A DNA stretch of 64,000 nucleotides from Elusimicrobia bacterium GWA2_56_46. Its GTDB lineage: Bacteria; Elusimicrobiota; Elusimicrobia; Elusimicrobiales; UBA9959. Below the pieces are notes generated by a model. It did not search any database, was not told where the DNA came from, and was given only the letters and a program-made list of their open reading frames with translations. Position 1 is the first letter of the stretch. Each line of letters starts with the position of its first letter. Made by a program: the position numbers and the translations under genes. Positions 3,527 through 63,060 of this stretch are shown here, piece by piece. The stretch is taken from the NCBI GenBank assembly GCA_001799575.1, contig MGTT01000028.1, forward strand, positions 79,274 to 143,273. The letters are read 5' to 3'.

Positions 3527-3680
3527 TGAACAGGTTTAAGTCACAAGTCGAACATGGAATTGATACAGATACTTATGGAAGCGGCGCACGATAGAGCGGG
3601 GTCCTGCCGGGGGATAACCTTTTCGCGTTCCCTCGGCCGCCTGCGGGGTCGAAAAGGTTACGCCCCCGTCACCCCTTCCC
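3527..3680. repeat. Right copy of the ~105 bp direct repeat, followed by a complete palindromic hairpin element.
   Basis: Positions 3527-3632 match 1689-1794. The palindrome ggggataaccttttcg...cgaaaaggttacgcccc closes the element. Confidence 0.8.
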
Positions 3681-3888: not shown

Positions 3889-4085
3889 AATGGAGGGGGC
3901 GGCGGCGGGTTTTCTGCGCGCTCCATTTGAGGGTTTAAAACCGGAGTCTGGAGCAGTATCCCTCCGGGACGGCGAGGATGTTTGAGGGCAAAAGCTTTGT
4001 CTTTTGCCCGAGTTCCGGAGCCGGCGGAGGACTCCGGTTTTCTTCCCCGGAAACCCGAACCCGGAGCGCGCGGGAAACCCGGCGA
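3889..4085. ncRNA. Structured RNA, copy 1. It is a rod-like hairpin of ~180-195 nt with a long closing stem. The family is unassigned (6S-like is the working hypothesis) and the strand is undetermined.
   Basis: The closing helix pairs cgggttttctgcgcgctcc with ggagcgcgcgggaaacccg. An inner helix pairs ccggagtc with gactccgg, and there is a central hairpin gggcaaaag...cttttgccc. A second copy at 54805-55005 preserves these helices through compensatory changes. Confidence 0.55.
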
Positions 4086-4135
4086 CGACCCCGGACAGTG
4101 CAATCGTCTTTAACAGCGGGCATCGTATTGAGGAT

Positions 4136-5060: not shown

Positions 5061-5201
5061 CAGGGCGGGTAATTACGCCGTACCATGATTGGGTGGGATT
5101 AAGATGCTATATTTTAAGGGAGCGCCGGGGATTTGATCTTAACCGGCATCCATTGCGTAAGTTTAATGGAGGGCCGCCGGCGGGTATAGTTGGAGGGGTG
5201 G

Positions 5202-5259
5202 CGGGACCATGCCTTTTCGTCCCGCAGGTTGCCGAGGGAAGCGGAAAGGCATGGTCCCG
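5202..5259. repeat. Palindromic hairpin element of the same family as 3590-3680 and 54528-54610, in inverted orientation.
   Basis: cgggaccatgccttttcg ... cggaaaggcatggtcccg forms a ~17 bp stem. The loop is approximately the reverse complement of the loop in the other copies. Confidence 0.6.
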
Positions 5260-5370
5260 ACAGGACCCCGAACTCGCAGCCGCCTGTGTCCCGACTGGGC
5301 ATCTCGCGGCTTTAAACCCAAAGTCAACTATCCCGGCGTTACATTGCGGTGAAAAGGTGAACGGGAATTT

Positions 5371-52691: not shown

Positions 52692-53744
52692 TCAGCGGTT
52701 CCGGAGACCGTCCAGGGATACCGACAGTTTGTCGCTTTCAAGCAGCGCCGCTTCCAGCACCAGTCCGTGAGAAACGTTCTGGTTCAGGAACCGGCGGTAT
52801 TCCATAAGTTTACCGATCAGGGCCGCATAGGCGCGCGCGCTCCCGCCGGGGGGCTGCGCCAGCCAGCGTTTTCTGGCGGAAACCAGCAGCATCTCCAGCA
52901 TGAGCTTCGCTTCCTCGCGCGCCAGATAGGGTTCGCGGGGAAGGCTTGAGACCAGTTTGAAAATTTTGGCCGGGCCGGAAGCCGCGATGCCTGCAAGCCG
53001 GTCGCGGACCTTTTTGATATCGACGGCTTTTTTTACCGAGCCACCCGACAGTTCGCTCAGGACGGAAGCTTCGTCCAGCGTCATGCCGTCCCTTTCCAGA
53101 AGCTCTTCCACCGCCGCGGCGGAAAGCCGCGTGAATTCCACGGCGTAGCTCCGGGAGATGATGGTCGGAAGGAGCAGGTTTTTCTTGGCGGCGATAAGGA
53201 GGAAAACGGTGCCGGGGGGCGGTTCCTCAAGAACCTTTAACATCGCGTTCTGGGCGTTCGCGTTAAGCGTGTGGGCGTCGTTTATAATAAAGATCTTCCA
53301 CTCGGAGAGAATGGCTTTTTGGTAGACATGGCGCGTGAATTCCCTTACGGTGTCGATGCGCAGGGTCTTCTGTTTCCGGGCGTCCTCTTCAAGAAGGAGC
53401 CCCTGGAATTCGGAGTCTATGATCCTCACGTCGGGGTGCACACCTTTGTCGATCTGCGAGCAGGAAACGCACCGGCCGCAGGCGTCTTCAGAGGGATGAG
53501 GGATGAGGGATGAGGGATGAAGGGGGGAGCCGGAGGAGGGGGCGAAAAGGTCGTCTTCGGGTTTTGGTTCCTGCCGGGGGGTGTGGGTGCAGTTAAGAGC
53601 TTTGGCGAATTCTTTCGCCGCCAGGAATTTACCGGTCCCTTCGGGGCCTGAGAACAGAAGCGCGGGCGGTACGCGCCCGCCGGAGACGAGGGCCTTAAGT
53701 TTTTTTATCGCGCTTTCGTGGCCGAGGATGTTGTTGAAAGACAT
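52692..53744 (-). CDS. holB: DNA polymerase III delta-prime subunit.
   Basis: There is an AAA+ N-terminus (LLFSGPEGTGK) and a Zn module. A Pro/Ser-rich insertion is encoded by a heptamer repeat. Confidence 0.85.
   Translation of the reverse strand: MSFNNILGHESAIKKLKALVSGGRVPPALLFSGPEGTGKFLAAKEFAKALNCTHTPRQEPKPEDDLFAPSSGSPLHPSSLIPHPSEDACGRCVSCSQIDKGVHPDVRIIDSEFQGLLLEEDARKQKTLRIDTVREFTRHVYQKAILSEWKIFIINDAHTLNANAQNAMLKVLEEPPPGTVFLLIAAKKNLLLPTIISRSYAVEFTRLSAAAVEELLERDGMTLDEASVLSELSGGSVKKAVDIKKVRDRLAGIAASGPAKIFKLVSSLPREPYLAREEAKLMLEMLLVSARKRWLAQPPGGSARAYAALIGKLMEYRRFLNQNVSHGLVLEAALLESDKLSVSLDGLRNR
53493..53520. repeat. Heptamer tandem repeat (GGGATGA)x4 inside the holB coding sequence.
   Basis: gggatgagggatgagggatgagggatga. 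On the coding (minus) strand it encodes ...HPSSLIPHPS... Confidence 0.8.
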
Positions 53745-53808
53745 GGTTGTTTGAAAGAGACAGGGACGTAAAGTAATTCAGTTCGCAGACTTTACGTCCT
53801 TGTCCAGA

Positions 53809-54432
53809 TCACTTTGCAGCTATCCCAAACCTTGCCGCCAGCCTGGCGGTTATGGCCGCGTGTATTTTCTCCACGGATCCGGCGGCGTCGATCCTGAAAG
53901 AGCCTGGACGCGCGGCCAGAGCCGAGTAGGCCTTGTTGACCCTGAGCCTGAAAGCGGTGTCCTGGCGTTCCATCCTGTCCGATCCAAGGTTCCTGCCGCG
54001 CTTGAAAAACTCGCTGTCAGGCATGGTGAAAACGATGGTCAGATCCGGCTTGAGGCCGGCGGTGGCTATGCGGTTCAGTGTCGCGACCATTTTGAGATCC
54101 AGTTTTCTGCCGTAGCCCTGGTAGGCCGTGGTGGCCATGGTGAAGCGGTCGGAGATGATTATTCTCCCGGCTTTCAGGGCGGGCCTGATTATGTCGGCGG
54201 TATGCTGCGCCCTGGCGGCCTCGTAAAGCAGGAGTTCGGTCAGGGGGCTGATCTTGTTTTCAGGGTCGAGGAGAATCTCGCGGATGGCCTCGGAAATGCG
54301 CGCCCCTCCGGGTTCGCGGGTTAAAACCGTTTTGAGGCCTTTTTTCTTCAGCCAGGCGGCCAGAAGTCCGGCCTGGGTGGATTTGCCGGAGCGATCCGGT
54401 CCCTCGAAGACTATAAAGAGGCCTCTTTTCAT
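53809..54432 (-). CDS. tmk: Thymidylate kinase.
   Basis: The P-loop FIVFEGPDRSGKST, the DRF motif and the position upstream of holB fit Tmk. Confidence 0.9.
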   Translation of the reverse strand: MKRGLFIVFEGPDRSGKSTQAGLLAAWLKKKGLKTVLTREPGGARISEAIREILLDPENKISPLTELLLYEAARAQHTADIIRPALKAGRIIISDRFTMATTAYQGYGRKLDLKMVATLNRIATAGLKPDLTIVFTMPDSEFFKRGRNLGSDRMERQDTAFRLRVNKAYSALAARPGSFRIDAAGSVEKIHAAITARLAARFGIAAK

Positions 54433-54527
54433 ACCTATATGATAGCAACAGAAAGCTAAAGAAAGCAACGGAACGCCAATCGAAGTAATGTAACGCCGAG
54501 CCAGTGGATTTTGGGTGAAGCTCCGCA

Positions 54528-54610
54528 GGATAGTAAAGCGGGGGCCTGCCGGGGTGAGGCCTTTTCGCGTTCCGTCGGCGGCCTGCCGGGTCGAAAAGGC
54601 CTCACCCCGG
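54528..54610. repeat. Palindromic hairpin element of the same family as 3590-3680.
   Basis: ggggtgaggccttttcgcgttccgtcggcggcctgccgggtcgaaaaggcctcacccc is a perfect 17 bp stem. It is preceded by a gatagtaaagcgggggcctgccgggg leader similar to the one at 3590. Confidence 0.75.
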
Positions 54611-54804
54611 CACCCCGCATAAGGCTTACGCGCTTGATGGTCGCTCGACTAAATTTCCCGGCGCTCGCCTCAACCCCAAGCCACTTATAAAACAAAGCCG
54701 CCGGTTTCCCGGCAATGGTGGTAAATGCACTGTATCTTAAAAAGGGCGGGATAATGATGTTGTGTTTTAGGTCGTAACGTGAGGAACTACAATACGCGTA
54801 AGTT

Positions 54805-55005
54805 TTAGGGAGGGGCGGCGCCGGGTTTTCTGTGCGCTCCATTCGGAGGGTTTTAAGACCGGGGTCTGGAGCGTATCCCTCCGGGACGGCGGTGAATGTT
54901 TGAGGCAAAAAACTTTGCTTTTTTGCCGAGTTCGCACGCCGACGGAAGACCCCGGTCTTCTTCTCCATAAAACCCGAACCCGGAGCGCGCGGGAAACCCG
55001 GCGCC
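54805..55005. ncRNA. Structured RNA, copy 2. It is paralogous to 3889-4085, and its helices are maintained by compensatory substitutions.
   Basis: The closing helix pairs ccgggttttctgtgcgctcc with ggagcgcgcgggaaacccgg. The inner helix pairs ccggggtc with gaccccgg, compared with ccggagtc/gactccgg in copy 1. The central hairpin is ggcaaaaaac...ttttttgcc. Confidence 0.55.
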
Positions 55006-55417
55006 GCCCCGACTCCGCTATCCTGCGGTTCGTAACTCAAAGTCAATCAGCCATGCGCAAGTTTACGAACATCCGGAGCGGCCGCAGTCGTGGCAGGTGG
55101 GGCCGGAACAGCCGGGATTCATAACTTGCATGGGAGGACTCCCAGGCGATGCCGACGCTGGCCGGTGATACGTGATGTTTTGCCGAGCCGCGAAATTAAA
55201 CTATAATCTGGAGATGTCAATGAGGACAGGTGTGGCGATGATTTTAACCGCTAATATACCTTTAGGCAATATTTATGCAACACGGAAATACTAAAGTCAG
55301 TCTGGAGGCGCGGCAATCTGGAAGCGGGGCAATTTATAGCCTTACATCCCGAACCTGAACCGCTTTACGCCTTTGCCTCTAAGCGGTTTTGCATCTATAT
55401 AACGGAGCGAATAAAAT

Positions 55418-57844
55418 ATGCCCGATCAATTCGACGAGTCCTCGCTTAACGAGGAAGCCATAACCGACGTGGAAACGGCCAGGCTGGCTTTACGCTGGGC
55501 ACTGGACAAGATCCGCGCTTTGCAGGAAGAGGCCATGCGTTCCAGGCAGAATCTGCAGGAGAAGTCTTCCCAGGCGGCGTTCATTGAGAACCAGCTGAAA
55601 GGGAAGAACTCGGAGATCGAAAGGATCCTGCGCACCCACGAAGAGGAGCTGAAGTCCACCCAGAATTCGCTGGAGTACCAGTTCCGCTCAAAACTGGAGC
55701 GGCTCGCCGAAAGAGAAAAGGAACTGGAAGACAAGTCCTCCAGGCAGGAGGAGATCCTTAAGCAGAAAGAGACCAGACTGCTTGACGATTATCAGAAAAA
55801 ATCTGACGAGCTGCGCGCCCGCTGGGCCCAGGTGGAAGCCGAGCTCTGGCGGCTGCGCCAGGAACATATGCTCAAGCAGCAGGAATTCGAGAAGCTTTAT
55901 GCCGCCAGGCTTGAGGACGAGCGCGCCAAGGCCGCCGCTGAAATGGAGAACGTCCGCGCCGGGTTCGAGAAGACTTACGCCGACAGGATCGCGGATCTGG
56001 AAAAAAGGGAACGCGCCGCCGCCGACGAACTGAAAAAGCAGGAAGCCATGCTCAAGTGGTCCAAAGACAGCTTCCAGGCCGAGGCGGCGGAGCGCGAAAA
56101 AGCTTTAAAGCAGAAAGACCTGGATATCGAAAAAAAATTGATGGAGAAAAACCAGGAGATAGAGGATTACAGGGTAAAAGAGGGCCTGCTTCAGAAGCAG
56201 TTGTCTGATCTGCCCGAGGCTGTCCGCAAGCGCGATGAAGATCTGAACAGGTACAAGCAGGCCATGGAGAGCCTCGAAAGCGTCATCCGCACCCTCGAAA
56301 ACGAGAAAAAAAACCTGCGGGCCGAGCTGGAACAGAAGGTGTCGCGCCTGAACGAGGCCCTGGAGGCGGAGAAGAAAAAGTACGGAGAAATGGAGGCTGA
56401 GATCCCCAAGCGGCTCAAGATCGCCGTAGAGCACGAGCGCGGCCGGCTGACCGAACGGCTTGCCGGCGTGGAGGCCGGTTACAAGGAGGATCTGCGCCGC
56501 CGCCAGGAAGAGGCGGCGTATCTTGAAAGAACCCTTAAGACCCTGGAGGAGAACAACAAGACCCTGCAGGCGGAGCGGGACTCTTTTTCGTACAAGATAG
56601 AGCAGTTACAGACCCAGTACGGCATAAAACAGGAGGAATTTTCTTTCAGGGAAAAGCAGCTTCAGTCCGAATATGACGTCAGGCTCAAGGTGGAACTGGA
56701 AAAACAGTCGGAGGCCATGAGGAACGAGCTTGAGTCGGCCCGGCGTATTTACGAGGACAATCTGCGCCTGAAAATAGAGGAGATAGCGCACCTGCGCCGG
56801 GAACTGGAGGGGGCCGTAAACGACAGGATGTCTTTCCAGACCCAGGCCGCCGAATTACGCCGCGCCGTGGACGCCGTCAAGGCCAAAGGCGAGAACGAAC
56901 TGTCCGCCCTCCGGGCGCAGCTTAAAGGCGCGTATGAACGGCAGCTTTCCGCGGAGCTTGCGGAAGCCGGGGATCGCCAGGCCGCGGAAAAGCAGAAGCT
57001 CGCCGCGGCTTTCGACGCGCGGCTCAAAGAAGAGGGGCTTGAAGTTTCCAGAAAAGAGGAGGAACTTCAGCGCCTCAGGAACGACATGAACAGGCTGGAA
57101 GCGGCCGGCAGGGAGGCCCTGGCCGCGGAGCGCCAGCGCGGGAAGACTGAGCTCCAGGTCCAGGCGGCGTCGTTCGCCGATACGGTGAAGATCTACGAGG
57201 ACAAGGTGAGCAACCTTAACAAGGCGATGGAGTCGCTGAAAGTGGAAAGAGAGGAGATGATCCTCCTGGAACGGGAGCGGCTTGAGAGGTTATATTCCGA
57301 AAAAGAGAAAGATTTCGACGAAAGGCTTTACCGGAAAGATCAGGAAGCGGTGCGTCTGCGGGAAGAGGCCTCCGGCCTGCGCAACGAGCGCGCCAATCTC
57401 GCCGCCGAACTGGCCAGGGAAAAAGAGCTGGGGAATGGGCGGATCCGCGTTCTCAACGAGAAACTGACGGGCAAGGAAGCGGAATTCCAGGGCCGCCTGG
57501 ACGAAGCCCTCGGGAAAGAGATGCGGCGGGCGGGGGAAACGCTTGACAAAAAGAATCAGGAACTGGACGCTCTGCTTCAGGCGAAAGAGACCCAGGAAAA
57601 TATGTACCGTAAGTCGCTGGAGGAGTTCCGGGCCAGGCTTTCCGAGGCCGTGACCAGGCTTGAGACGCTTAAAAAACTGGCTGATGAACGGGGCGCGCGC
57701 GTGGACGCCCTGGAGCGGGAACTGGATCAGATCCGGAAGTTCTCTTCCGAAGAGAACTCCTCCCTCGCCGCCAGGCTGGCCGCAAAGGAAAAGGACTGGC
57801 GCGAGCTGAGGGCCGAGTATGAGAAGCTGAAGAATGGGGGATGA
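55418..57844 (+). CDS. 808-aa protein that is coiled-coil for nearly its whole length (cytoskeletal or scaffold-like, with no recognisable enzymatic domain).
   Basis: It is extremely rich in E, K, R, L and A, with heptad-like periodicity throughout. There is no TM helix or signal peptide, and the ORF is long and uninterrupted. Confidence 0.7.
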   Translation: MPDQFDESSLNEEAITDVETARLALRWALDKIRALQEEAMRSRQNLQEKSSQAAFIENQLKGKNSEIERILRTHEEELKSTQNSLEYQFRSKLERLAEREKELEDKSSRQEEILKQKETRLLDDYQKKSDELRARWAQVEAELWRLRQEHMLKQQEFEKLYAARLEDERAKAAAEMENVRAGFEKTYADRIADLEKRERAAADELKKQEAMLKWSKDSFQAEAAEREKALKQKDLDIEKKLMEKNQEIEDYRVKEGLLQKQLSDLPEAVRKRDEDLNRYKQAMESLESVIRTLENEKKNLRAELEQKVSRLNEALEAEKKKYGEMEAEIPKRLKIAVEHERGRLTERLAGVEAGYKEDLRRRQEEAAYLERTLKTLEENNKTLQAERDSFSYKIEQLQTQYGIKQEEFSFREKQLQSEYDVRLKVELEKQSEAMRNELESARRIYEDNLRLKIEEIAHLRRELEGAVNDRMSFQTQAAELRRAVDAVKAKGENELSALRAQLKGAYERQLSAELAEAGDRQAAEKQKLAAAFDARLKEEGLEVSRKEEELQRLRNDMNRLEAAGREALAAERQRGKTELQVQAASFADTVKIYEDKVSNLNKAMESLKVEREEMILLERERLERLYSEKEKDFDERLYRKDQEAVRLREEASGLRNERANLAAELAREKELGNGRIRVLNEKLTGKEAEFQGRLDEALGKEMRRAGETLDKKNQELDALLQAKETQENMYRKSLEEFRARLSEAVTRLETLKKLADERGARVDALERELDQIRKFSSEENSSLAARLAAKEKDWRELRAEYEKLKNGG

Positions 57845-57862: not shown

Positions 57863-57908
57863 CAAAAATTCCCCGTCCGCTTTAAGCGGACGGGGAATTT
57901 TATTTTTA
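57863..57908. terminator. Bidirectional rho-independent terminator between the convergent coiled-coil and pilin genes.
   Basis: ccccgtccgc-tttaa-gcggacgggg is flanked by A-run and T-run tracts on both strands. Confidence 0.7.
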
Positions 57909-57925: not shown

Positions 57926-58396
57926 TTAATCCAGCAGTTCGGCGCAGTTGGCCGCGCCGCCGGGGCAGGCCGATATTACGACAGCCGGCGAGTCTGGAAC
58001 CGTGGCGCTTATGGCGTAGGCGCCGTACCGGGGGGCCACGGTGGGCGTGGTGCGGCGCGTCATCGTGATCCTGTATCCGGGGCCGCCGCCCGCGGCGACC
58101 ACGAGCGCCAGGCTGCCTGTGAAAAACTTGGTGGGCAGGACTGTCGCGGTCATTGGAACCCCGGAGTAGGAGTAGGAGATGTCCAATTGCGTAAAATCGG
58201 CGGTATATACGCCGCCCTTGGCGAGAAAGCGCTCTTCCGCGGATTTTATGGTGGAGATGACGCTCATGGCCTCGGAAACGCGCGCTTTTTCCACCACTTT
58301 AAAGTACTGCGGTATGGCGATGGACGCCAGGATGCCGATGATCAGCACCACGACCAGCAACTCGATGAGTGTAAAACCCTTTTTATTCGCGGTCAT
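57926..58396 (-). CDS. Type IV pilin / pseudopilin with a prepilin N-terminal methylation motif.
   Basis: KGFTLIELLVVVLIIGILA is the classic class III signal and hydrophobic alpha-1 helix. Confidence 0.88.
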   Translation of the reverse strand: MTANKKGFTLIELLVVVLIIGILASIAIPQYFKVVEKARVSEAMSVISTIKSAEERFLAKGGVYTADFTQLDISYSYSGVPMTATVLPTKFFTGSLALVVAAGGGPGYRITMTRRTTPTVAPRYGAYAISATVPDSPAVVISACPGGAANCAELLD

Positions 58397-58423
58397 AGTC
58401 CCCCTGCCGAGAGAATTTTGTTT

Positions 58424-58495
58424 TGCGCCCGGCGCGATTCGAACGCGCGGCCACTCGCTTAAAAGGCGAATGCTCTACCCCTGAGCTACGGGCGC
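58424..58495 (-). tRNA. tRNA-Lys (anticodon UUU).
   Basis: The reverse complement is GCGCCCGTAGCTCAGGGGTAGAGCATTCGCCTTTTAAGCGAGTGGCCGCGCGTTCGAATCGCGCCGGGCGCA, with anticodon loop CTTTTAA. Confidence 0.85.
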
Positions 58496-58570
58496 AAAGT
58501 GCTACGGATTGATTATACCAAAATACGGCCGCCTTGCAAATTTTGCGATCTTTTGAAATTACACGGGGTA

Positions 58571-59476
58571 ATGAAATATAATGTACGGATGGCTCCGGCG
58601 AAAAAGTACAGAGTTAAGGTGCGTCTGAAAATCCGGAACCGGATTTTCAGGAATGCCGGGTTTGCGCTGTCCTCGTTCGCCGCAGCCGCCGTCCTCGCGT
58701 ACTGTTGTTTCAGCGCCGCCCGGTTCGCCGCCGCGCGTTTCCCCGGACATTTTTTTGCTTTCACTTTTAAAAGCCTGTCGGTGGAGGCTCCTTCCGGAGA
58801 GATCTCCGCGGAGATTTCCCGACGCCTTGACGGGAAGCTGGGCGGGACTTTTTCCACGGGGGAGGCGGCGGAGTTCGCCGCCGGCCTGAAAAAAAACTAT
58901 CCCGCCTTGAGCCGGGTGGAAGTCAGCCGGAATTTTATCAGCGGACGAGTGAGCGTTCGCGCAGAGGCCGAGAAAGTGGTGGCAAAAGTCCGGCTTAACG
59001 GCGGGGAAACTTTTTATCTTTCGGAGAACGGGCGCCTTCTCAGGGAATACTGCGGCGTCGGGCCGGAAGACAGCTTTGAAACCGAGATCTACGCCGGTCC
59101 GGCCGCCGGCCTGGGGCCGTTCGCCGTTTTTTTGAGGGAACTTAAGACCATGACTCCGGATTTCTTTTCCCGGCCGGTAAGGCTGGAATACCGCCTCCCG
59201 GGCGCGGAGGGCCGTTCAGGAACAAGCCCGGGATCCCCGGCCCCGGCGGCCCCCGATCCCCGCATCCCGCGTCCTCCGGACGGCGGATACTGCCGGCTTA
59301 CTCTTGAAAACAGCGCGCTGGTGCTGTGGGGGGAATTGGGATTTACGAAATCCAAGATCTCGCGGCTTAACGAGGTTCTCGGCGACGCCGCGCGCAGGAT
59401 AAACGGCCCCCTGAAAGTGGACTTCCGTTATTTCCGGGACGGAAAAGTTTTTGTTTCTAAACTGGCCGGTATTTAA
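58571..59476 (+). CDS. ftsQ: Cell division protein FtsQ/DivIB-like (TM plus POTRA). The start is uncertain; the longest ORF begins at 58499.
   Basis: There is a single TM helix, a POTRA-like region, and a position immediately upstream of ftsA-ftsZ. Confidence 0.6.
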   Translation: MKYNVRMAPAKKYRVKVRLKIRNRIFRNAGFALSSFAAAAVLAYCCFSAARFAAARFPGHFFAFTFKSLSVEAPSGEISAEISRRLDGKLGGTFSTGEAAEFAAGLKKNYPALSRVEVSRNFISGRVSVRAEAEKVVAKVRLNGGETFYLSENGRLLREYCGVGPEDSFETEIYAGPAAGLGPFAVFLRELKTMTPDFFSRPVRLEYRLPGAEGRSGTSPGSPAPAAPDPRIPRPPDGGYCRLTLENSALVLWGELGFTKSKISRLNEVLGDAARRINGPLKVDFRYFRDGKVFVSKLAGI

Positions 59477-59566
59477 GTAGAATAAAGGAAGACGCCGGAT
59501 TCGCGCGGCTCCGCGGATTTGGCGCCCCTTTTCGCGGCAATTTTCTGATAAAACTGGAGCTCTCAT

Positions 59567-60799
59567 ATGGCAAAGTCAGACATCATCGCCGGACTTGACA
59601 TGGGGTCAAGCCGGGTAACCTGCGTTTTGGCCGAGCACGATCCCGGATCGGAGAAAATAAGGATCCTCGCCGGCGCCTCGGCGCCCTGTAAGGGGCTCAA
59701 AGGCGGCGTGGTCGTCAATATCGCCGAAACGCAGCGCGCGATAGCCAATGTCATGGAGGCCGCCGAGGAAAAGGCCAAAGAGATCGTCGGAGAGGTTTAT
59801 CTCGGCGTGCGCGGCGGACATTTTCAGACTTTCAATAACCGCGGAGCTTACAATATCGCCCGCGCCGACAAGGAAATCACCGCCGAGGACGTTTCCAACG
59901 TCATAGAGAACGCCAAAGCGATACCTATTCCGTCCGACCGCGAGATCCTGCACGTCATTCCCCAGGGATTTTCGCTTGACCGCCAGCGCGGCGTGCCCAA
60001 CCCGGTGGGGATGGAGGGCGCGCTTCTGGAAGTCGGGGTTCACATCGTCACCGCCCAAAGTTCTCACATCAACAACCTTATGAAGTCGGTGTCGCAGGCC
60101 GGTTTCCGGGTGGTCGATACCGTTTATAATCTGCTGGCTATAGGAGAGCTCGTGGTCTCGCCCGAGGAGAAAGATCTCGGCTGCCTGCTTATCGATATCG
60201 GCGGCCAGACCACCGCCGTGGGGGTTTATTACGAGGGCAGCCTGCATTTCTCCAGCGAGATCCCGCTGGGAGGGGATCACGTGACGCGCGACATCGCTTA
60301 CGGCCTGGGAACCTCCATGTCCACGGCCCAGGAGATAAAGGAGAAATACGGCGCCGTCCTTTCAAGTCTGGTGGATGGCGACCGGATTCTGAACATAACC
60401 GGTCTGGACGCCAGAACCAAGAAAGAGATAAAGGCCCGCGATCTGCTGGATTATGTGCAGCCCAGAACCGAGGAGATGTTCGAGCGCGTGAATACTTTCC
60501 TGCAAAACTGTAATTCTTCCGACCTTCCCGGCGGGGCCATTCTCACCGGCGGCGGAGCCCTGCTGAAAGGCATGAACGAAGCCGCGGAGCAGCTGCTGGA
60601 GCTCAAGCAGGCCCGGTACGGGTTCGCCCGGCCCGACATTATAGAATGTCCAGAGGAGTATCTCAGCCAGACTTATACTTCGGCGATAGGCCTGGTATGC
60701 TATCAGTACCTTAAACCCTGGGCCAACGAACCCTCGGCCGCGCGCCGTCCGCCCATGATCCCGGCGGCCTGGTGGCGCTGGGTAAAGGATTTGTTTTAA
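59567..60799 (+). CDS. ftsA: Cell division protein FtsA.
   Basis: The actin-like ATPase fold begins GLDMGSS, continues with LIDIGGQTT, and ends in a C-terminal amphipathic tail. Confidence 0.92.
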   Translation: MAKSDIIAGLDMGSSRVTCVLAEHDPGSEKIRILAGASAPCKGLKGGVVVNIAETQRAIANVMEAAEEKAKEIVGEVYLGVRGGHFQTFNNRGAYNIARADKEITAEDVSNVIENAKAIPIPSDREILHVIPQGFSLDRQRGVPNPVGMEGALLEVGVHIVTAQSSHINNLMKSVSQAGFRVVDTVYNLLAIGELVVSPEEKDLGCLLIDIGGQTTAVGVYYEGSLHFSSEIPLGGDHVTRDIAYGLGTSMSTAQEIKEKYGAVLSSLVDGDRILNITGLDARTKKEIKARDLLDYVQPRTEEMFERVNTFLQNCNSSDLPGGAILTGGGALLKGMNEAAEQLLELKQARYGFARPDIIECPEEYLSQTYTSAIGLVCYQYLKPWANEPSAARRPPMIPAAWWRWVKDLF

Positions 60800-60806
60800 G
60801 GTTTTT

Positions 60807-61961
60807 ATGACCGACGCAAGAATCAGATATAACGGGGATTTTCAGGACCGGGAAGCCAGGATAAAGGTCATTGGCGTGGGAGGCGGAGGCGGAAACGCCG
60901 TCAACCGCATGGTGGAAGCGGATATCCGCATGGTTGACTTTATTTCCCTCAACACCGACGCGCAGGATCTCCGCCGCAATAAAGCCCCGAGCCGCGTGCA
61001 GATAGGGGAAACTCTCACCAAAGGTCTCGGGGTCGGCGGCGATCCGGCAAGAGGGCGTCAGGCGGCGCTGGAATCGGAGGAACTGGTAAAGGAAGCCGTT
61101 TCCGACGCCGACCTGATCTTTATCACCGCCGGCATGGGGGGCGGAACCGGCACCGGCGCCGCTCCCGTGGTCGCCCAGCTGGCAAAGGAGACTTCCTCGG
61201 CGCTGGTCATCGGCGTGGTCACCCGCCCGTTCGAATTCGAAGGTACAGTCAGGGCCAACCAGGCCGACCAGGGGATCCATGAGATGCGCAAGCACGTGGA
61301 TTCCCTCCTTGTGATCCCCAATGACCGTCTCCGCGACATAGTCGGGAGCGATACGGCGGCGACCGAGGCCTACCGCATAGCCGACGACGTGCTGAGGCAG
61401 GCTATCCAGGGCATCGCCGATGTTATAACCACCGCCGGTCTCATTAACGTGGATTTTCAGGATGTCCGCAAGATCATGACCAAGTCGGGAGAGGCTTTGA
61501 TCGGCATCGGCCAGGCTTCCGGCGAGAAGCGCCACCTGGACGCGGCTTCCCAGGCCATACACTCCCCGATGCTGGAGAACGCCGTTATAGACGGGGCCAA
61601 AGGCATCCTGGTGAATTTCACCAGCGCCAGGAACCTGAAGCTCTCGGAGATCCAGGAAGCCATGGAATATATCAGGAAGTCCTCCAACCCCGACGCGTTC
61701 ATAAAATTCGGGCAGGCGGACGACGACGCCGTGGGCGACGCCCTGAAGATAACCGTGATCGCGACCGGGTTCCCGTCGCGTCCCAAGACCGACCTGAGCA
61801 TAGATCTGGAAAGGCACCGCCATAAAAAACGGCCGCGTCCCGCGGGGGATTTTTTCGACAGTATCGACGGCCCGAACATGATCAATTCCGGTATGCCGGA
61901 CGAGGATCTGGACAGGCCCGCCTTTATGAGGCGTAAAACCGGAGGCCGGAGACTGAAATAA
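60807..61961 (+). CDS. ftsZ: Cell division GTPase FtsZ.
   Basis: The tubulin signature GGGTGTG appears as AGMGGGTGTGAAP, preceded by IGVGGGGGNAVNRM. Confidence 0.95.
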   Translation: MTDARIRYNGDFQDREARIKVIGVGGGGGNAVNRMVEADIRMVDFISLNTDAQDLRRNKAPSRVQIGETLTKGLGVGGDPARGRQAALESEELVKEAVSDADLIFITAGMGGGTGTGAAPVVAQLAKETSSALVIGVVTRPFEFEGTVRANQADQGIHEMRKHVDSLLVIPNDRLRDIVGSDTAATEAYRIADDVLRQAIQGIADVITTAGLINVDFQDVRKIMTKSGEALIGIGQASGEKRHLDAASQAIHSPMLENAVIDGAKGILVNFTSARNLKLSEIQEAMEYIRKSSNPDAFIKFGQADDDAVGDALKITVIATGFPSRPKTDLSIDLERHRHKKRPRPAGDFFDSIDGPNMINSGMPDEDLDRPAFMRRKTGGRRLK

Positions 61962-61971
61962 ATCCAAATTT

Positions 61972-63060
61972 ATGGCTATAAATCTTAATATGCTGCTGAA
62001 AGTGATGGTGCAGAACAAGGCGAGCGATACGCATATAAGGGGCGGCTCTCCCGTGTTCCTGCGCATAGACGGCCGGATCACGCAGATCAACGACTCTTCC
62101 ATGACTCCCAAAGAAGTGGAAGATATGATTTTCCCGCTGATGAACCCGCGCCTCCGGTCGGTGTTTAACGAGAAACACGAGGTTGATTTTTCGGTGGACG
62201 GCGGGGACACGGGCCGCTTCCGTTTCAATGTCTACGTTCAGAAAGGCAGGATCTGCGTGGCCATCCGGCATATTCCCCTGAAGATCCCCACATTTGAAGA
62301 GCTCCGGCTCCCCGTCGACCCCGTAAAGAAGCTGCTTGTGAACGAACGCGGCCTCATCCTGGTGACGGGTATTACCGGTTCCGGCAAGACCTCCACCCTG
62401 GCCGCCATGGTGGAATACCTGAACCAGAGCTGGGAGAGCCACATCATAACCATCGAGGATCCGATAGAATTCGTTTTTACGGACAAGAAAAGCATAATCA
62501 GCCAGCGCGAGATCGGAACCGATACCAATAGTTTCGTGGACGCCCTGCGCGCGGCCATGCGTCAGGATCCCGACATTATCCTTGTGGGAGAGATGCGCGA
62601 CCTGGTGACCACGCAGGCGGCTATAACCGCCGCGGAGACGGGACACCTGGTTTTCGCCACAATGCACACCGTCAACGCCGTTCAGACCCTTTCCCGGATC
62701 GTGGATCTTTATCCGCCGCACCAGCAGCCGCAGGTGCGTATGCAGCTGTCGGAAACTCTCAGGGGCGTAGTTTCCCAGCGCCTGCTGCCCTGCACCGGCG
62801 GCGGGCGTATCCCGGCCGTGGAGATTCTCACCGGCACGGCGCACATAAAGAAGATGATCGCCGAGAATAATATGGATTCGATAAGCCAGGCGATAGCGAA
62901 AGGCGCCTTTTACGGAATGCAGTCTTTCAATCAGTCCCTGGTCGGGCTGCATAAAAAAGGCCTGGCGAAACTTGACGACATTATCCAGGCGGCTTCTAAC
63001 CCGGACGATGTTCTGCTGGCCATCAAAGGCATAGAGCAGGAAATAGAGACGAAACATTAG
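61972..63060 (+). CDS. pilT: Type IV pilus retraction ATPase PilT.
   Basis: Walker A GITGSGKT, Asp box, Walker B and His box are present. The length is 362 aa. Confidence 0.88.
   Translation: MAINLNMLLKVMVQNKASDTHIRGGSPVFLRIDGRITQINDSSMTPKEVEDMIFPLMNPRLRSVFNEKHEVDFSVDGGDTGRFRFNVYVQKGRICVAIRHIPLKIPTFEELRLPVDPVKKLLVNERGLILVTGITGSGKTSTLAAMVEYLNQSWESHIITIEDPIEFVFTDKKSIISQREIGTDTNSFVDALRAAMRQDPDIILVGEMRDLVTTQAAITAAETGHLVFATMHTVNAVQTLSRIVDLYPPHQQPQVRMQLSETLRGVVSQRLLPCTGGGRIPAVEILTGTAHIKKMIAENNMDSISQAIAKGAFYGMQSFNQSLVGLHKKGLAKLDDIIQAASNPDDVLLAIKGIEQEIETKH

What the first reader, a model, noticed from the sequence alone, without database searches (positions are those of the whole stretch)
55418..57844. 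808-aa all-coiled-coil protein next to a pilin gene and the ftsQAZ-pilT cluster
The ORF is almost entirely E/K/R/L/A/Q-rich heptad sequence with no TM segment, signal peptide or enzymatic motif. Proteins of this composition and size behave as bacterial intermediate-filament-like or scaffold proteins, for example the crescentin, FilP and Scy type. It is convergently arranged with a type IV pilin gene and shares a bidirectional terminator with it. It sits just upstream of the tRNA-Lys/ftsQ-ftsA-ftsZ/pilT block, a neighbourhood that suggests a role in cell shape, division or pilus positioning. The ~960 bp regulatory-looking gap upstream adds to the interest.
Basis: partly seen in the sequence, partly recalled or inferred. 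Interest (0 to 1): 0.55.

Follow-up and report, generated by a model that had tools for sequence, protein, structure and literature searches.

The report
Orphaned Elusimicrobia coiled-coil kinase-partner protein
The 808-residue all-helical protein is real and under selection, but it belongs to none of the known cytoskeletal families: it is a shortened member of an undescribed family, found only in Elusimicrobia, that normally works with (or is fused to) a giant soluble histidine kinase which this genome's locus has lost.

Summary
ORF 55418-57844(+) encodes an 808-aa protein that is 43% charged and about 93% helical, with no TM segment, signal peptide or enzymatic domain. It is convergent with a type IV pilin over a 17-bp-stem bidirectional terminator, upstream of tRNA-Lys, an ftsQ-like gene, ftsA, ftsZ and pilT.

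The protein fails the sequence tests for IF/crescentin, FilP/Scy/DivIVA-like and SMC/Rad50.

It belongs to a narrow family found only in Elusimicrobiota (12 clusters at E<=1e-30 among 1.84 billion representatives). The family has a conserved N-terminal head (DVETARLALRWAL) and a 470-aa N-module. In about 35 of 58 species the gene sits in a larger cluster: secreted proteins, a LysM protein, the coiled-coil gene (CC), a giant soluble coiled-coil histidine kinase overlapping its stop codon, a REC-TM response regulator, and a convergent pilin. Five deep-branching homologues are direct fusions to a kinase core.

The window's lineage lost the kinase, the regulator, the envelope genes and the CC C-terminal tail. 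This loss happened in at least 3 clades. The remaining gene stays under purifying selection (dN/dS 0.115).

The "regulatory" gap is a deletion scar: a ribonucleotide reductase remnant plus two hairpin repeats.

Most likely function: an elongated scaffold or adaptor, now uncoupled from its kinase.

The parts
55418..57844 (+). Coiled-coil protein gene (808 aa plus stop). It is a C-terminally shortened member of the Elusimicrobiota 'head + N-module' coiled-coil family.
   Evidence: ORF. 100% identical to a hypothetical protein of Elusimicrobia bacterium GWA2_56_46, with 77 homologues, all Elusimicrobia. dN/dS 0.115 against L070. About 93% helix in the AF2 model.
55418..55537 (+). N-terminal head (residues 1-40), with the motif D17-VETARLALRWAL starting 13-19 residues from the N-terminus in all members.
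   Evidence: Nearly invariant columns. The same head is found in a second Elusimicrobia coiled-coil subfamily and in kinase fusions.
55418..56827 (+). Conserved N-module (residues 1-470). It contains invariant W27/136/144/214, P266, P330 and H74/339, and is the most conserved part of the protein.
   Evidence: Top-residue frequency is 0.63-0.85 here against 0.52-0.69 in the C-terminal part. dN/dS 0.076. Only 12 clusters at E<=1e-30 among 1.84 billion representatives. No PDB or Pfam relative.
56828..57841 (+). Variable coiled-coil C-part (residues 471-808). It ends where homologues continue for another 100-450 residues to the conserved '...LVEQLKEKLxxWKxK' end, which is missing here.
   Evidence: Alignment to P0004. 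C-terminal motif table. dN/dS 0.187.
57865..57901 (.). Bidirectional intrinsic terminator hairpin (17-bp stem, 9 G-C pairs, 3-nt loop) shared with the pilin gene.
   Evidence: The stem is conserved in L070.
57926..58396 (-). Type IV pilin or pseudopilin gene, convergent with the coiled-coil gene and orthologous in all Elusimicrobiales loci.
   Evidence: N_methyl 35.2 bits. 45-69% full-length identity to the pilins in L001, L003, L004 and L008. Synteny.
58423..58496 (-). tRNA-Lys (UUU).
58589..63060 (+). An ftsQ-like gene (by position only), then ftsA (59567-60799), ftsZ (60807-61961) and pilT (61972-63060).
   Evidence: ORFs. Pfam labels of orthologues in L001 and L070. Synteny. The ftsQ-like gene has no Pfam hit.
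54469..55417 (.). Intergenic gap between tmk and the coiled-coil gene. It is a deletion scar rather than an extended regulatory region.
   Evidence: The gap is only 357 bp in L001.
54536..54620 (.). 85-nt palindromic hairpin repeat, with related copies near 1743-1794, 3609-3666 and 5199-5262.
54812..55010 (.). ~200-nt MITE-like element with 29-nt terminal inverted repeats, 84% identical to the copy at 3895-4092.
55063..55138 (-). Remnant of the 3' end of a class II ribonucleotide reductase gene: the last ~16 codons ('GCSGPTCHDCGRSGCS') plus the stop.
   Evidence: A 76-nt block conserved at 76-95% identity in 9 genomes, where it is the end of an intact 836-aa RNR gene. Ribonuc_red_lgC 432 bits.
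55178..55417 (+). Probable true promoter and 5' leader of the coiled-coil gene, with sigma-70-like sites at 55180-55207 and 55388-55417.
   Evidence: Consensus scan. 55178-55374 is 83% identical to the region upstream of the L070 gene. Function is inferred.
52692..54468 (-). holB (DNA polymerase III delta') and tmk, the divergent upstream neighbours that characterise the 'reduced' configuration.
   Evidence: Pfam: 150 bits each. Synteny.

Best explanation
The gene encodes a soluble, elongated, all-alpha-helical scaffold or adaptor protein. It belongs to an undescribed family restricted to Elusimicrobiota.

The family is built from three parts:
- a short conserved N-terminal head (DVETARLALRWAL);
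- a highly conserved ~470-residue helical N-module;
- a variable coiled-coil tail.

In the family's usual state the protein is the non-catalytic partner of a giant, TM-less coiled-coil histidine kinase. In deep branches it is the N-terminal input region of such a kinase. The kinase phosphorylates a membrane-anchored REC-TM-(beta-propeller-like) response regulator, inside a cluster that also encodes secreted and LysM envelope proteins. The conserved C-terminal tail of the coiled-coil protein is the likely coupling element to that kinase module.

In the window's lineage the kinase, the regulator, the envelope genes and the tail have all been deleted. What remains is the head plus N-module plus ~340 residues of rod. 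It is still under purifying selection. It therefore most likely keeps a kinase-independent role as a positional scaffold anchored through its head and N-module. Its persistent neighbours (pilin, ftsQAZ, pilT) suggest the type IV pilus or division machinery as the partner.

Shown: the family, its architecture, the synteny, the fusions, the co-loss and the selection. Inferred: physical interaction with the kinase, the scaffold role, and any pilus or division connection.
For: - Architecture: about 93% helix, no globular domain and no TM segment. Periodicity is far above shuffles.
- Family: 77 homologues and 58 species loci, all Elusimicrobiota. The exhaustive profile search finds only 12 clusters at E<=1e-30 and 53 at E<=1e-3, and every named one is Elusimicrobia.
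- Kinase link: the CC gene overlaps the downstream 1088-1192-aa HisKA/HATPase_c gene by 16 nt in independent loci (domains). That kinase has a ~980-aa coiled-coil-like region and no TM segment.
- Fusions of the head and N-module to a kinase core: P0076, P0162, P0185, P0167 and P0164. The P0076 fusion is followed by an orthologue of the same regulator.
- Co-evolution: every locus with the kinase and regulator downstream (28 in the table) keeps the C-terminal '...EQLKEK[LMF]KxWKxK' end. Among the ~17 loci without them, only 2 keep it.
- The loss occurred in at least 3 clades, and again recently within the window's own clade (L068 against L001).
- The CC gene survives each loss. dN/dS is 0.115 overall and 0.076 for the N-module, compared with 0.036 for ftsZ.
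- The pilin is orthologous and convergent in all Elusimicrobiales loci.
Against: - No direct evidence of protein-protein interaction, oligomeric state or localisation. AF2 gives pTM 0.23-0.24, so the geometry is undefined.
- The 16-nt overlap means part of the C-terminal motif's conservation could reflect the kinase gene's ribosome-binding site and start codon rather than a protein interface.
- The pilin and ftsQAZ adjacency could be inherited gene order without a functional link. The pilin is convergent, not co-transcribed. The E. minutum-like loci (L056, L057) lack it.
- A bulk filament-forming (IF-like) role is not excluded by anything tested.
- The kinase and regulator might exist elsewhere in the GWA2_56_46 genome. 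Only the 64-kb window and name-based evidence argue against this.
Confidence: 0.55

Rival explanations
1. It is a bacterial intermediate-filament-like cytoskeletal protein, functionally like crescentin, FilP or Scy. It would self-assemble into filaments and contribute to cell shape, division-site organisation or pilus placement.
For: - Long rod-like helices with short non-helical ends.
- A mixed heptad/hendecad core, as described for FilP and Scy (PMC9858780).
- Weak sub-threshold similarity to lamin (19.7 bits) and to Pfam Filament (13 bits; 3 of 8 members at E>=0.007).
- Conserved position next to ftsQAZ.
- Retention after loss of the kinase shows it has a kinase-independent role.
Against: - The sequence-level membership tests fail: Filament is below its cut-off, and the DivIVA-like motif is found in 0 of 77 members.
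- There is no lag-51 Scy-type repeat.
- Conservation is unusually high and position-specific for a structural rod, with many invariant W, H and P residues and 38-70% identity across an order.
- Kinase fusions and co-evolution point to signalling.
- Filament formation cannot be tested here.
Confidence: 0.25
2. It is a decaying remnant: a gene that lost its function with the kinase module and is on its way to pseudogenisation. The C-terminal truncation would be the first step.
For: - The C-terminal ~200 residues and the terminal motif are deleted.
- All partner genes are gone from the locus.
- Truncations to 701-758 aa occurred in other kinase-less lineages.
- The surrounding region shows deletion scars and repeat insertions.
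Against: - The reading frame is intact and the same 808-aa form occurs in two relatives (P0002, P0003).
- dN/dS is 0.115 overall and 0.076 in the N-module.
- The N-module's invariant positions are kept in all kinase-less lineages.
- A clean terminator follows the new stop codon and is conserved.
Confidence: 0.05
3. It is an SMC/MukB/Rad50-type or other ATPase-associated chromosome-organisation protein. Some source annotations call homologues 'chromosome segregation ATPase'.
For: - JGI names several homologues 'chromosome segregation ATPase'.
- Weak NCBIfam hits to Rad50 and SMC coiled-coil arms at 18-24 bits.
- An SMC2-arm hit with the family profile at E=7.6e-8, confined to the variable C-terminal half.
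Against: - Scores are 20-30 times below the family cut-offs of 300-729 bits.
- The hits cover only coiled-coil arms.
- There are no N- or C-terminal ATPase heads. A Walker A-like string occurs in only 5 of 77 members, inside the coiled coil.
- There is no hinge and no zinc hook (0 Cys).
- AF2 shows no globular domain.
Confidence: 0.03

Closest known systems
DivIVA-like domain proteins (DivIVA, GpsB, FilP, Scy; Martinez-Goikoetxea & Lupas 2023, PMC9858780)
   Same: - The layout is the same: a short conserved N-terminal motif immediately before a long coiled coil.
- Coiled-coil length varies between subfamilies.
- The hydrophobic core is partly non-heptad (hendecad-containing).
- Members sit in cell-division gene neighbourhoods.
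   Different: - The motif is different: D-V-E-T-A-R-L-A-L-R-W-A-L rather than RGYDxxEVD, with 0 of 77 matches to the defining pattern.
- There is no Pfam DivIVA hit.
- The family is in a different phylum (diderm Elusimicrobiota rather than Gram-positives).
- It has a 470-residue highly conserved N-module.
- It is associated with, and sometimes fused to, a histidine kinase.
Crescentin and other bacterial IF-like coiled-coil-rich proteins (CCRPs)
   Same: It is a soluble, elongated, nearly all-helical protein without enzymatic domains, and it lies near division genes.
   Different: - There is no significant similarity to the IF rod (13 bits against a cut-off of 40).
- Sequence conservation is much higher.
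- It has kinase partnerships and fusions.
- Filament formation is unknown.
Coiled-coil scaffolds coupled to two-component signalling and type IV pili or motility (such as Myxococcus AglZ and FrzS, which have a receiver domain plus a long coiled coil, and Pseudomonas FimV or Vibrio HubP). This comparison rests on my own knowledge and was not tested here.
   Same: - A long coiled coil is combined with phosphorelay components.
- The genes sit next to pilus genes (pilin, pilT).
- LysM-containing envelope partners are present in the full cluster.
   Different: - No sequence relationship was detected.
- Here the coiled coil is joined to the kinase side, not to a receiver domain.
- The protein itself has no TM segment or LysM domain.
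- The window's copy has lost all of its signalling partners.
SMC/Rad50/MukB coiled-coil arms
   Same: Long helices with generic coiled-coil sequence similarity.
   Different: It has no ATPase heads, no hinge and no zinc hook, and scores are far below the cut-offs.

Membership tests
Eukaryote-type IF / crescentin-like (IF-like) proteins | A recognisable IF rod domain (Pfam PF00038 Filament) or significant similarity to lamin or keratin rods. | tested here: not met
   Filament scores 13 bits against a cut-off of 40. Three of 8 N-modules hit at E>=0.007. Lamin A/C scores 15-19.7 bits, E 0.0026-0.045.
Eukaryote-type IF / crescentin-like (IF-like) proteins | A tripartite head-rod-tail layout with a segmented coiled-coil rod. 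| tested here: inconclusive
   There are five long helices separated by short breaks at P266, P330, G540 and G672, and a 17-residue non-helical head, but no tail. This is compatible with the layout but not specific to it.
Eukaryote-type IF / crescentin-like (IF-like) proteins | Nucleotide-independent self-assembly into filaments. | not testable with these tools
   Requires purified protein.
DivIVA-like class (FilP, Scy, DivIVA, GpsB) | The N-terminal motif GY[DN]xx[QE]V[DN] (RGYDxxEVD) before the coiled coil (PMC9858780). | tested here: not met
   0 of 77 family proteins match. A relaxed pattern in the first 60 residues also gives 0 of 77. No Pfam DivIVA hit at E<=1.
DivIVA-like class (FilP, Scy, DivIVA, GpsB) | Extended hendecad or 51-residue repeat periodicity (FilP, Scy). 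| tested here: inconclusive
   Autocorrelation peaks fall at lags 7, 11, 18, 14 and 25, with a mean period of 3.60. Lag 51 is not among the top 14 lags.
SMC / MukB / Rad50 / RecN | N-terminal Walker A and C-terminal Walker B/signature ATPase head halves. | tested here: not met
   There is no globular domain. A Walker A-like string occurs in only 5 of 77 members and lies inside the coiled coil. NCBIfam SMC and Rad50 score 18-24 bits against cut-offs of 567-729.
SMC / MukB / Rad50 / RecN | A central hinge or CxxC zinc hook. | tested here: not met
   0 Cys. No non-helical central domain.
Sensor histidine kinase | A HisKA (H-box) dimerisation domain and a HATPase_c catalytic domain. | tested here: not met
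   Both are absent from the window protein. They are present in the homologues P0076, P0162 and P0185 (HisKA plus HATPase_c) and in P0164 and P0167 (HATPase_c only). The window protein is therefore homologous to the input region of such kinases but is not a kinase.
Pfam DUF7491 (coiled-coil region of unknown function) | A score at or above the gathering cut-off of 30 bits. | tested here: not met
   18.9-19.8 bits for residues 353-407. Six of 8 relatives hit, with a best E of 2.2e-6. P0004 carries a precomputed hit. This is borderline and uninformative about function.
Elusimicrobiota head + N-module coiled-coil family (defined here) | The N-terminal head D[VLIM][EDA]T[AG][RK]..[LFI][RK]W[AS][LV] starting 13-19 residues from the N-terminus. 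| tested here: met
   The motif starts at residue 17. The columns are nearly invariant.
Elusimicrobiota head + N-module coiled-coil family (defined here) | The full-length conserved N-module (~470 aa). | tested here: met
   37-95% identity over 100% of the query. Profile scores are 688-778 bits for the full-length representatives of the core family and 290-340 bits for the distant kinase fusions P0162 and P0164.
Elusimicrobiota head + N-module coiled-coil family (defined here) | The C-terminal '...LVEQLKEK[LMF]KxWKxK' end and a translationally coupled downstream kinase plus regulator. | tested here: not met
   The protein ends at the equivalent of P0004 residue 823. No kinase or regulator is present anywhere in the window. 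This is the derived 'reduced' state shared by about 17 of 58 loci.

The most novel reading that the evidence does not exclude
The head + N-module proteins may define a new, phylum-specific class of cytoskeletal signalling element. In this reading, a ~100-nm coiled-coil 'ruler' is anchored by its head to a fixed cellular structure such as the pilus base or the divisome. In the full system it positions or mechanically gates a giant soluble histidine kinase. The phosphoryl output goes to a receiver domain tethered through the membrane to a periplasmic beta-propeller, so this would be an inside-out trans-envelope relay linked to secreted CHU_C and LysM envelope proteins. The window's orphan copy would then be the kinase-independent structural core, showing that the scaffold function is the ancestral and essential one.
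Probability: 0.15. Interest if true: 0.8.

Novelty: new variant of a known kind. Interest (0 to 1): 0.45.

Why it matters
Bacterial coiled-coil-rich proteins are hard to classify, and they are often labelled 'IF-like' or 'SMC-like' from composition alone. In this case comparative genomics gives a more specific and testable picture.

- It is a family confined to one little-studied phylum, with a conserved N-terminal head and a conserved 470-residue module.
- The module recurs as the input region or partner of TM-less giant histidine kinases.
- A natural experiment has happened at least three times: the kinase module was deleted, the scaffold was kept, and its coupling tail decayed.

If confirmed, this would add a new head-plus-coiled-coil class analogous to DivIVA-like proteins in a diderm phylum. 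It would also point to an unusual signalling design: a soluble coiled-coil kinase acting on a membrane-tethered receiver with a periplasmic domain.

For genome annotation, the result corrects the 'chromosome segregation ATPase' labels and shows that the large upstream gap is a deletion scar. The window's own copy is a reduced orphan from an uncultured organism, which limits the immediate impact.

Tried and rejected
- Missing N-terminal coding sequence in the upstream gap: rejected. The extra length in homologues is C-terminal.
- A structured RNA or riboswitch in the gap: rejected. There is no Rfam hit at gathering threshold. The sub-threshold 'miRNA' hits are only long hairpins. The conserved 76-nt block is the 3' end of a deleted ribonucleotide reductase gene.
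- The 196-aa minus-strand ORF at 54456-55046: no Pfam hit, and it runs across the repeats, so I treated it as spurious.
- Partner kinase as a paralogue of the CC protein: rejected. There is no BLASTP similarity, and the kinase lacks the head.
- Kinase, regulator, TraF/LysM or CHU_C genes, or remnants of them, elsewhere in the window: none found.
- Fold-level homology: Foldseek against the PDB gave 0 hits. Modelling the N-module alone did not raise pTM (0.24), so hairpin versus extended geometry is unresolved. I ran no further search on a low-pTM model.
- A 51-residue Scy-type repeat: not seen.
- The Walker A-like 'AERQRGKT' at residue 570: a chance match. Such a string occurs in only 5 of 77 members.
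- Literature: no paper links Elusimicrobia to this protein family.
- P0196, an apparent fusion to half of an FtsQ POTRA domain, is a single contig and a partial domain. I treated it as a possible chimeric gene call, not as evidence.
Full report
**1. Observation**

The window matches Elusimicrobia bacterium GWA2_56_46; the protein is 100% identical to one of its hypothetical proteins.

ORF 55418-57844(+) encodes 808 residues. E, L, A, R and K each make up 10-18% of the sequence, and 43% of residues are charged. There are three prolines and no cysteine. The most hydrophobic 19-residue window averages only 0.32 on the Kyte-Doolittle scale, so there is no TM segment or signal peptide. Nothing in Pfam or NCBIfam reaches a curated cut-off. 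The best hits are coiled-coil arms of Rad50 and SMC (18-24 bits against cut-offs of 300-729) and IF 'Filament' (13 bits against 40).

The amphipathic periodicity is real. The hydrophobic-position spectrum peaks at 4.2, against a 99th percentile of 1.96 for composition-matched shuffles. Of the 808 residues, 563 lie in 28-residue windows above the shuffle 95th percentile.

The period is 3.60 rather than 3.50. On the family alignment the conserved hydrophobic core autocorrelates at lags 7, 11 and 18, which indicates a heptad/hendecad mix.

AlphaFold2 with a 63-sequence alignment gives mean pLDDT 77. It predicts five long helices (18-262, 305-327, 331-535, 543-669, 674-807), broken at the invariant P266 and P330 and at G540 and G672. 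There is no globular domain.

The neighbourhood claims also hold:
- A prepilin-type pilin lies at 57926-58396(-).
- A 17-bp-stem hairpin at 57865-57901 scores as a terminator in both directions.
- tRNA-Lys lies at 58423-58496(-).
- An ftsQ-like gene, ftsA, ftsZ and pilT follow.

**2. The family**

The word-indexed search found 77 homologues at 37-95% identity, and every named one is from Elusimicrobia. A scan of species-representative genomes found 58 loci, all Elusimicrobiota, including an Elusimicrobium minutum MAG at 37%.

An exhaustive HMMER profile search with the N-terminal 470 residues covered 1.84 billion representative proteins. It found only 12 clusters at E<=1e-30 and 53 at E<=1e-3.

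Conservation is concentrated in residues 1-470, where many columns are invariant, including W27, W136, W144, W214, P266, P330, H74 and H339.

The weak tail of the exhaustive search is informative. Dozens of proteins align only through their extreme N-terminus to residues ~3-100 of the query. They share a head motif, D-(V/L)-(E/D)-T-A-(R/K)-L-A-L-R-W-(A/S)-(L/V), that begins 13-19 residues from the start. All the named ones are again Elusimicrobia.

**3. Genomic context**

A tblastn panel run over the 58 loci shows two configurations.

- The 'full' configuration occurs in about 35 loci. In gene order it has a secreted 895-aa protein, a CHU_C-domain protein, a TraF_2/LysM protein, and then the coiled-coil gene (CC). 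Next come a 1088-1192-aa kinase, a response regulator, a convergent pilin, an ftsQ-like gene, ftsA, ftsZ and pilT.
- The 'reduced' configuration occurs in about 17 loci, including the window. In gene order it has holB and tmk (both convergent with CC), then CC, a convergent pilin, and the same ftsQ-like, ftsA, ftsZ and pilT genes.

In the full loci the kinase gene overlaps the CC stop codon by 16 nt. The kinase has HisKA and HATPase_c domains only at its C-terminus. These follow ~980 residues of coiled-coil-like sequence, and there is no TM segment.

The regulator has a REC domain, a Pro/Ala linker, one TM helix and a ~200-residue repeat domain. That domain shows only faint SGL/YvrE-like similarity.

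The window contains no trace of the kinase, the regulator, TraF/LysM or CHU_C. The pilin is a true orthologue across all configurations, at 45-69% identity over its full length.

**4. Link to the kinase**

Three independent lines connect the coiled-coil protein to the kinase.

- Translational coupling: the 16-nt overlap described above.
- Rosetta-stone fusions: P0076 (1347 aa), P0162 (1336 aa) and P0185 (625 aa) are head plus coiled coil plus HisKA plus HATPase_c. P0164 (702 aa; locus L061) and P0167 (580 aa) are head plus coiled coil plus HATPase_c. The P0076 fusion is followed by an orthologue of the same regulator.
- Co-evolution: every locus with the kinase and regulator downstream (28 in the table) keeps the CC C-terminal end '...LVEQLKEK(L/M/F)KxWKxK'.
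  - Among the ~17 loci without the kinase and regulator, only L011 and L042 keep the motif.
  - In the rest it is either degenerate (L010, L041, L045-L048, L053, L060) or deleted. The deleted cases are the window at 808 aa, L012 and L013 at 744-745 aa, L015 and L017 at 701 aa, and L044 at 758 aa.

A neighbour-joining tree of the N-module places the kinase-less loci in at least three clades. Within the window's own clade, P0005 still has the kinase and regulator, while its close relative P0004 does not. The module has therefore been lost repeatedly, the coiled-coil gene has been kept each time, and its tail has then decayed.

One caveat applies. The last few codons overlap the kinase gene's start region, so nucleotide-level constraint may explain part of the motif's conservation.

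**5. Is the window's shortened copy functional?**

Two relatives at 94-95% identity also encode 808 residues. Against one of them (L070), dS is 0.23 and dN/dS is 0.115. The ratio is 0.076 for the N-module and 0.19 for the C-part. For comparison, ftsZ gives 0.036 and pilT 0.038. The terminator after the new stop codon is conserved. The gene is therefore maintained by selection and is not a pseudogene.

**6. The upstream gap**

The 949-bp gap is only 357 bp in L001. In the window it contains three identifiable elements.

- An 85-nt near-perfect hairpin at 54536-54620.
- A ~200-nt element with terminal inverted repeats at 54812-55010. Both this and the hairpin have copies elsewhere in the window (around 1.7-5.3 kb) and in other Elusimicrobia genomes.
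- A 76-nt block at 55063-55138 that is 76-95% identical across nine genomes. In those genomes the block is the 3' end of an intact 836-aa class II ribonucleotide reductase gene lying between tmk and the CC cluster. In the window only the last ~16 codons and the stop survive.

No Rfam family matches at the gathering threshold. Only the last ~240 nt (55178-55417) is conserved with the close relative, and it carries sigma-70-like sites. The gap is a deletion scar with repeat insertions, not an unusually large regulatory region.

**7. Comparison with known families**

- IF-like: the rod-domain test fails, and filament assembly cannot be tested here.
- FilP/Scy/DivIVA-like: the class is defined by an N-terminal RGYDxxEVD motif before the coiled coil (PMC9858780). 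None of the 77 family members has it, and there is no 51-residue repeat.
  - The layout, however, is strikingly analogous: a conserved N-terminal motif followed by a variable coiled coil with a partly hendecad core.
- SMC/Rad50: there are no ATPase heads, hinge or hook.
- Solved structures: profile searches against PDB sequences hit only generic coiled coils. For the full-length profile these hits lie in the variable half. The N-module profile gives nothing better than lamin at 19.7 bits. Foldseek found nothing.
- Literature: the searchable library contains no description of this family.

**8. Interpretation**

The best-supported reading (confidence about 0.55) is an elongated scaffold or adaptor. 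Ancestrally it couples to a giant soluble histidine kinase, or forms the input region of one. In this lineage it has been uncoupled from that kinase and retains a kinase-independent role through its head and N-module.

Repeated retention after loss of the module shows that such a role exists. Its nature is an inference drawn only from the persistent neighbourhood, which suggests pilus-base or divisome anchoring. A filament-forming IF-like role (about 0.25) is not excluded and is not mutually exclusive with the scaffold reading. The pseudogene and SMC-type readings are effectively refuted.

**9. Verdict**

The feature is real and its description was accurate.

The more interesting result lies outside the window's copy: an undescribed head-plus-coiled-coil family restricted to Elusimicrobiota, and its kinase-regulator-envelope cluster. 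The window carries a reduced orphan of that system.

Interest is moderate (0.45). I classify it as a new variant of a known kind, namely bacterial coiled-coil-rich scaffold proteins.

Noticed in passing
window 54536-54620, 54812-55010; also ~1743-1794, 3578-3675, 3895-4092, 5195-5270: There are two families of palindromic intergenic repeats: an ~85-nt hairpin and a ~200-nt MITE-like element with 29-42-nt terminal inverted repeats (84% identity between copies). Copies also occur in other Elusimicrobia genomes (L010, L042, L060). They produce spurious sub-threshold Rfam 'miRNA precursor' hits.
   Followed up: partly
window 55063-55138 (-): This is a remnant of the last ~16 codons plus the stop of a class II ribonucleotide reductase gene ('GCSGPTCHDCGRSGCS*'). 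The gene is intact between tmk and the coiled-coil cluster in at least 10 related genomes, and the rest of it is absent from the window.
   Followed up: yes
L003 7506-12309; L006 8407-13137; L008 11195-15688; L068 3814-8866: In 'full' loci a TM-less histidine kinase of 1045-1192 aa carries up to ~980 residues of coiled coil. It is followed by an unusual response regulator made of REC, a Pro/Ala linker, one TM helix and a ~200-aa repeat domain that is faintly SGL/YvrE beta-propeller-like. The receiver's output domain would then lie outside the cytoplasm.
   Followed up: partly
L008 1567-7964; L003 901-3986; L006 1680-4819: Upstream of the coiled-coil gene in full loci are a secreted 895-aa protein, a protein with a CHU_C (type IX secretion-type sorting) domain at 31 bits, and a TraF_2/LysM protein. 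All have N-terminal hydrophobic segments. They are lost together with the kinase and regulator, which suggests a single trans-envelope module.
   Followed up: partly
window 61972-63060 and most loci L011-L060: A pilT-type ATPase gene (T2SSE) follows ftsZ directly, in the same orientation, across the order. This is an unusual and conserved juxtaposition of division and pilus-retraction genes.
   Followed up: no
It is conserved in position in all loci (37-61% identity), so it is FtsQ by position only.
   Followed up: partly
P0203/P0212 (1034 aa), P0170-P0184; loci L064-L067: A second Elusimicrobia coiled-coil subfamily shares only the N-terminal head ('LDPSAITDVETAKLALRWAVEKIH'), followed by a 'WQGTIKTWEENWK' block. 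It is not next to the pilin or ftsQAZ in the available flanks.
   Followed up: partly
P0196 (826 aa, Elusimicrobia MAG HBL17182.1): This protein has the head and coiled coil, and ends in the second half of an FtsQ-type POTRA_1 domain (24 bits against a cut-off of 23) with no TM segment. It is either a genuine fusion to FtsQ or a chimeric or frameshifted gene call. Only a single contig carries it.
   Followed up: partly
L019, L025, L028, L029, L036, L041-L047, L053, L054: In many loci an OmpR-type response regulator and a HAMP histidine kinase (both on the minus strand) lie between the pilin and the ftsQ-like gene. In the window that position is occupied by tRNA-Lys alone.
   Followed up: no
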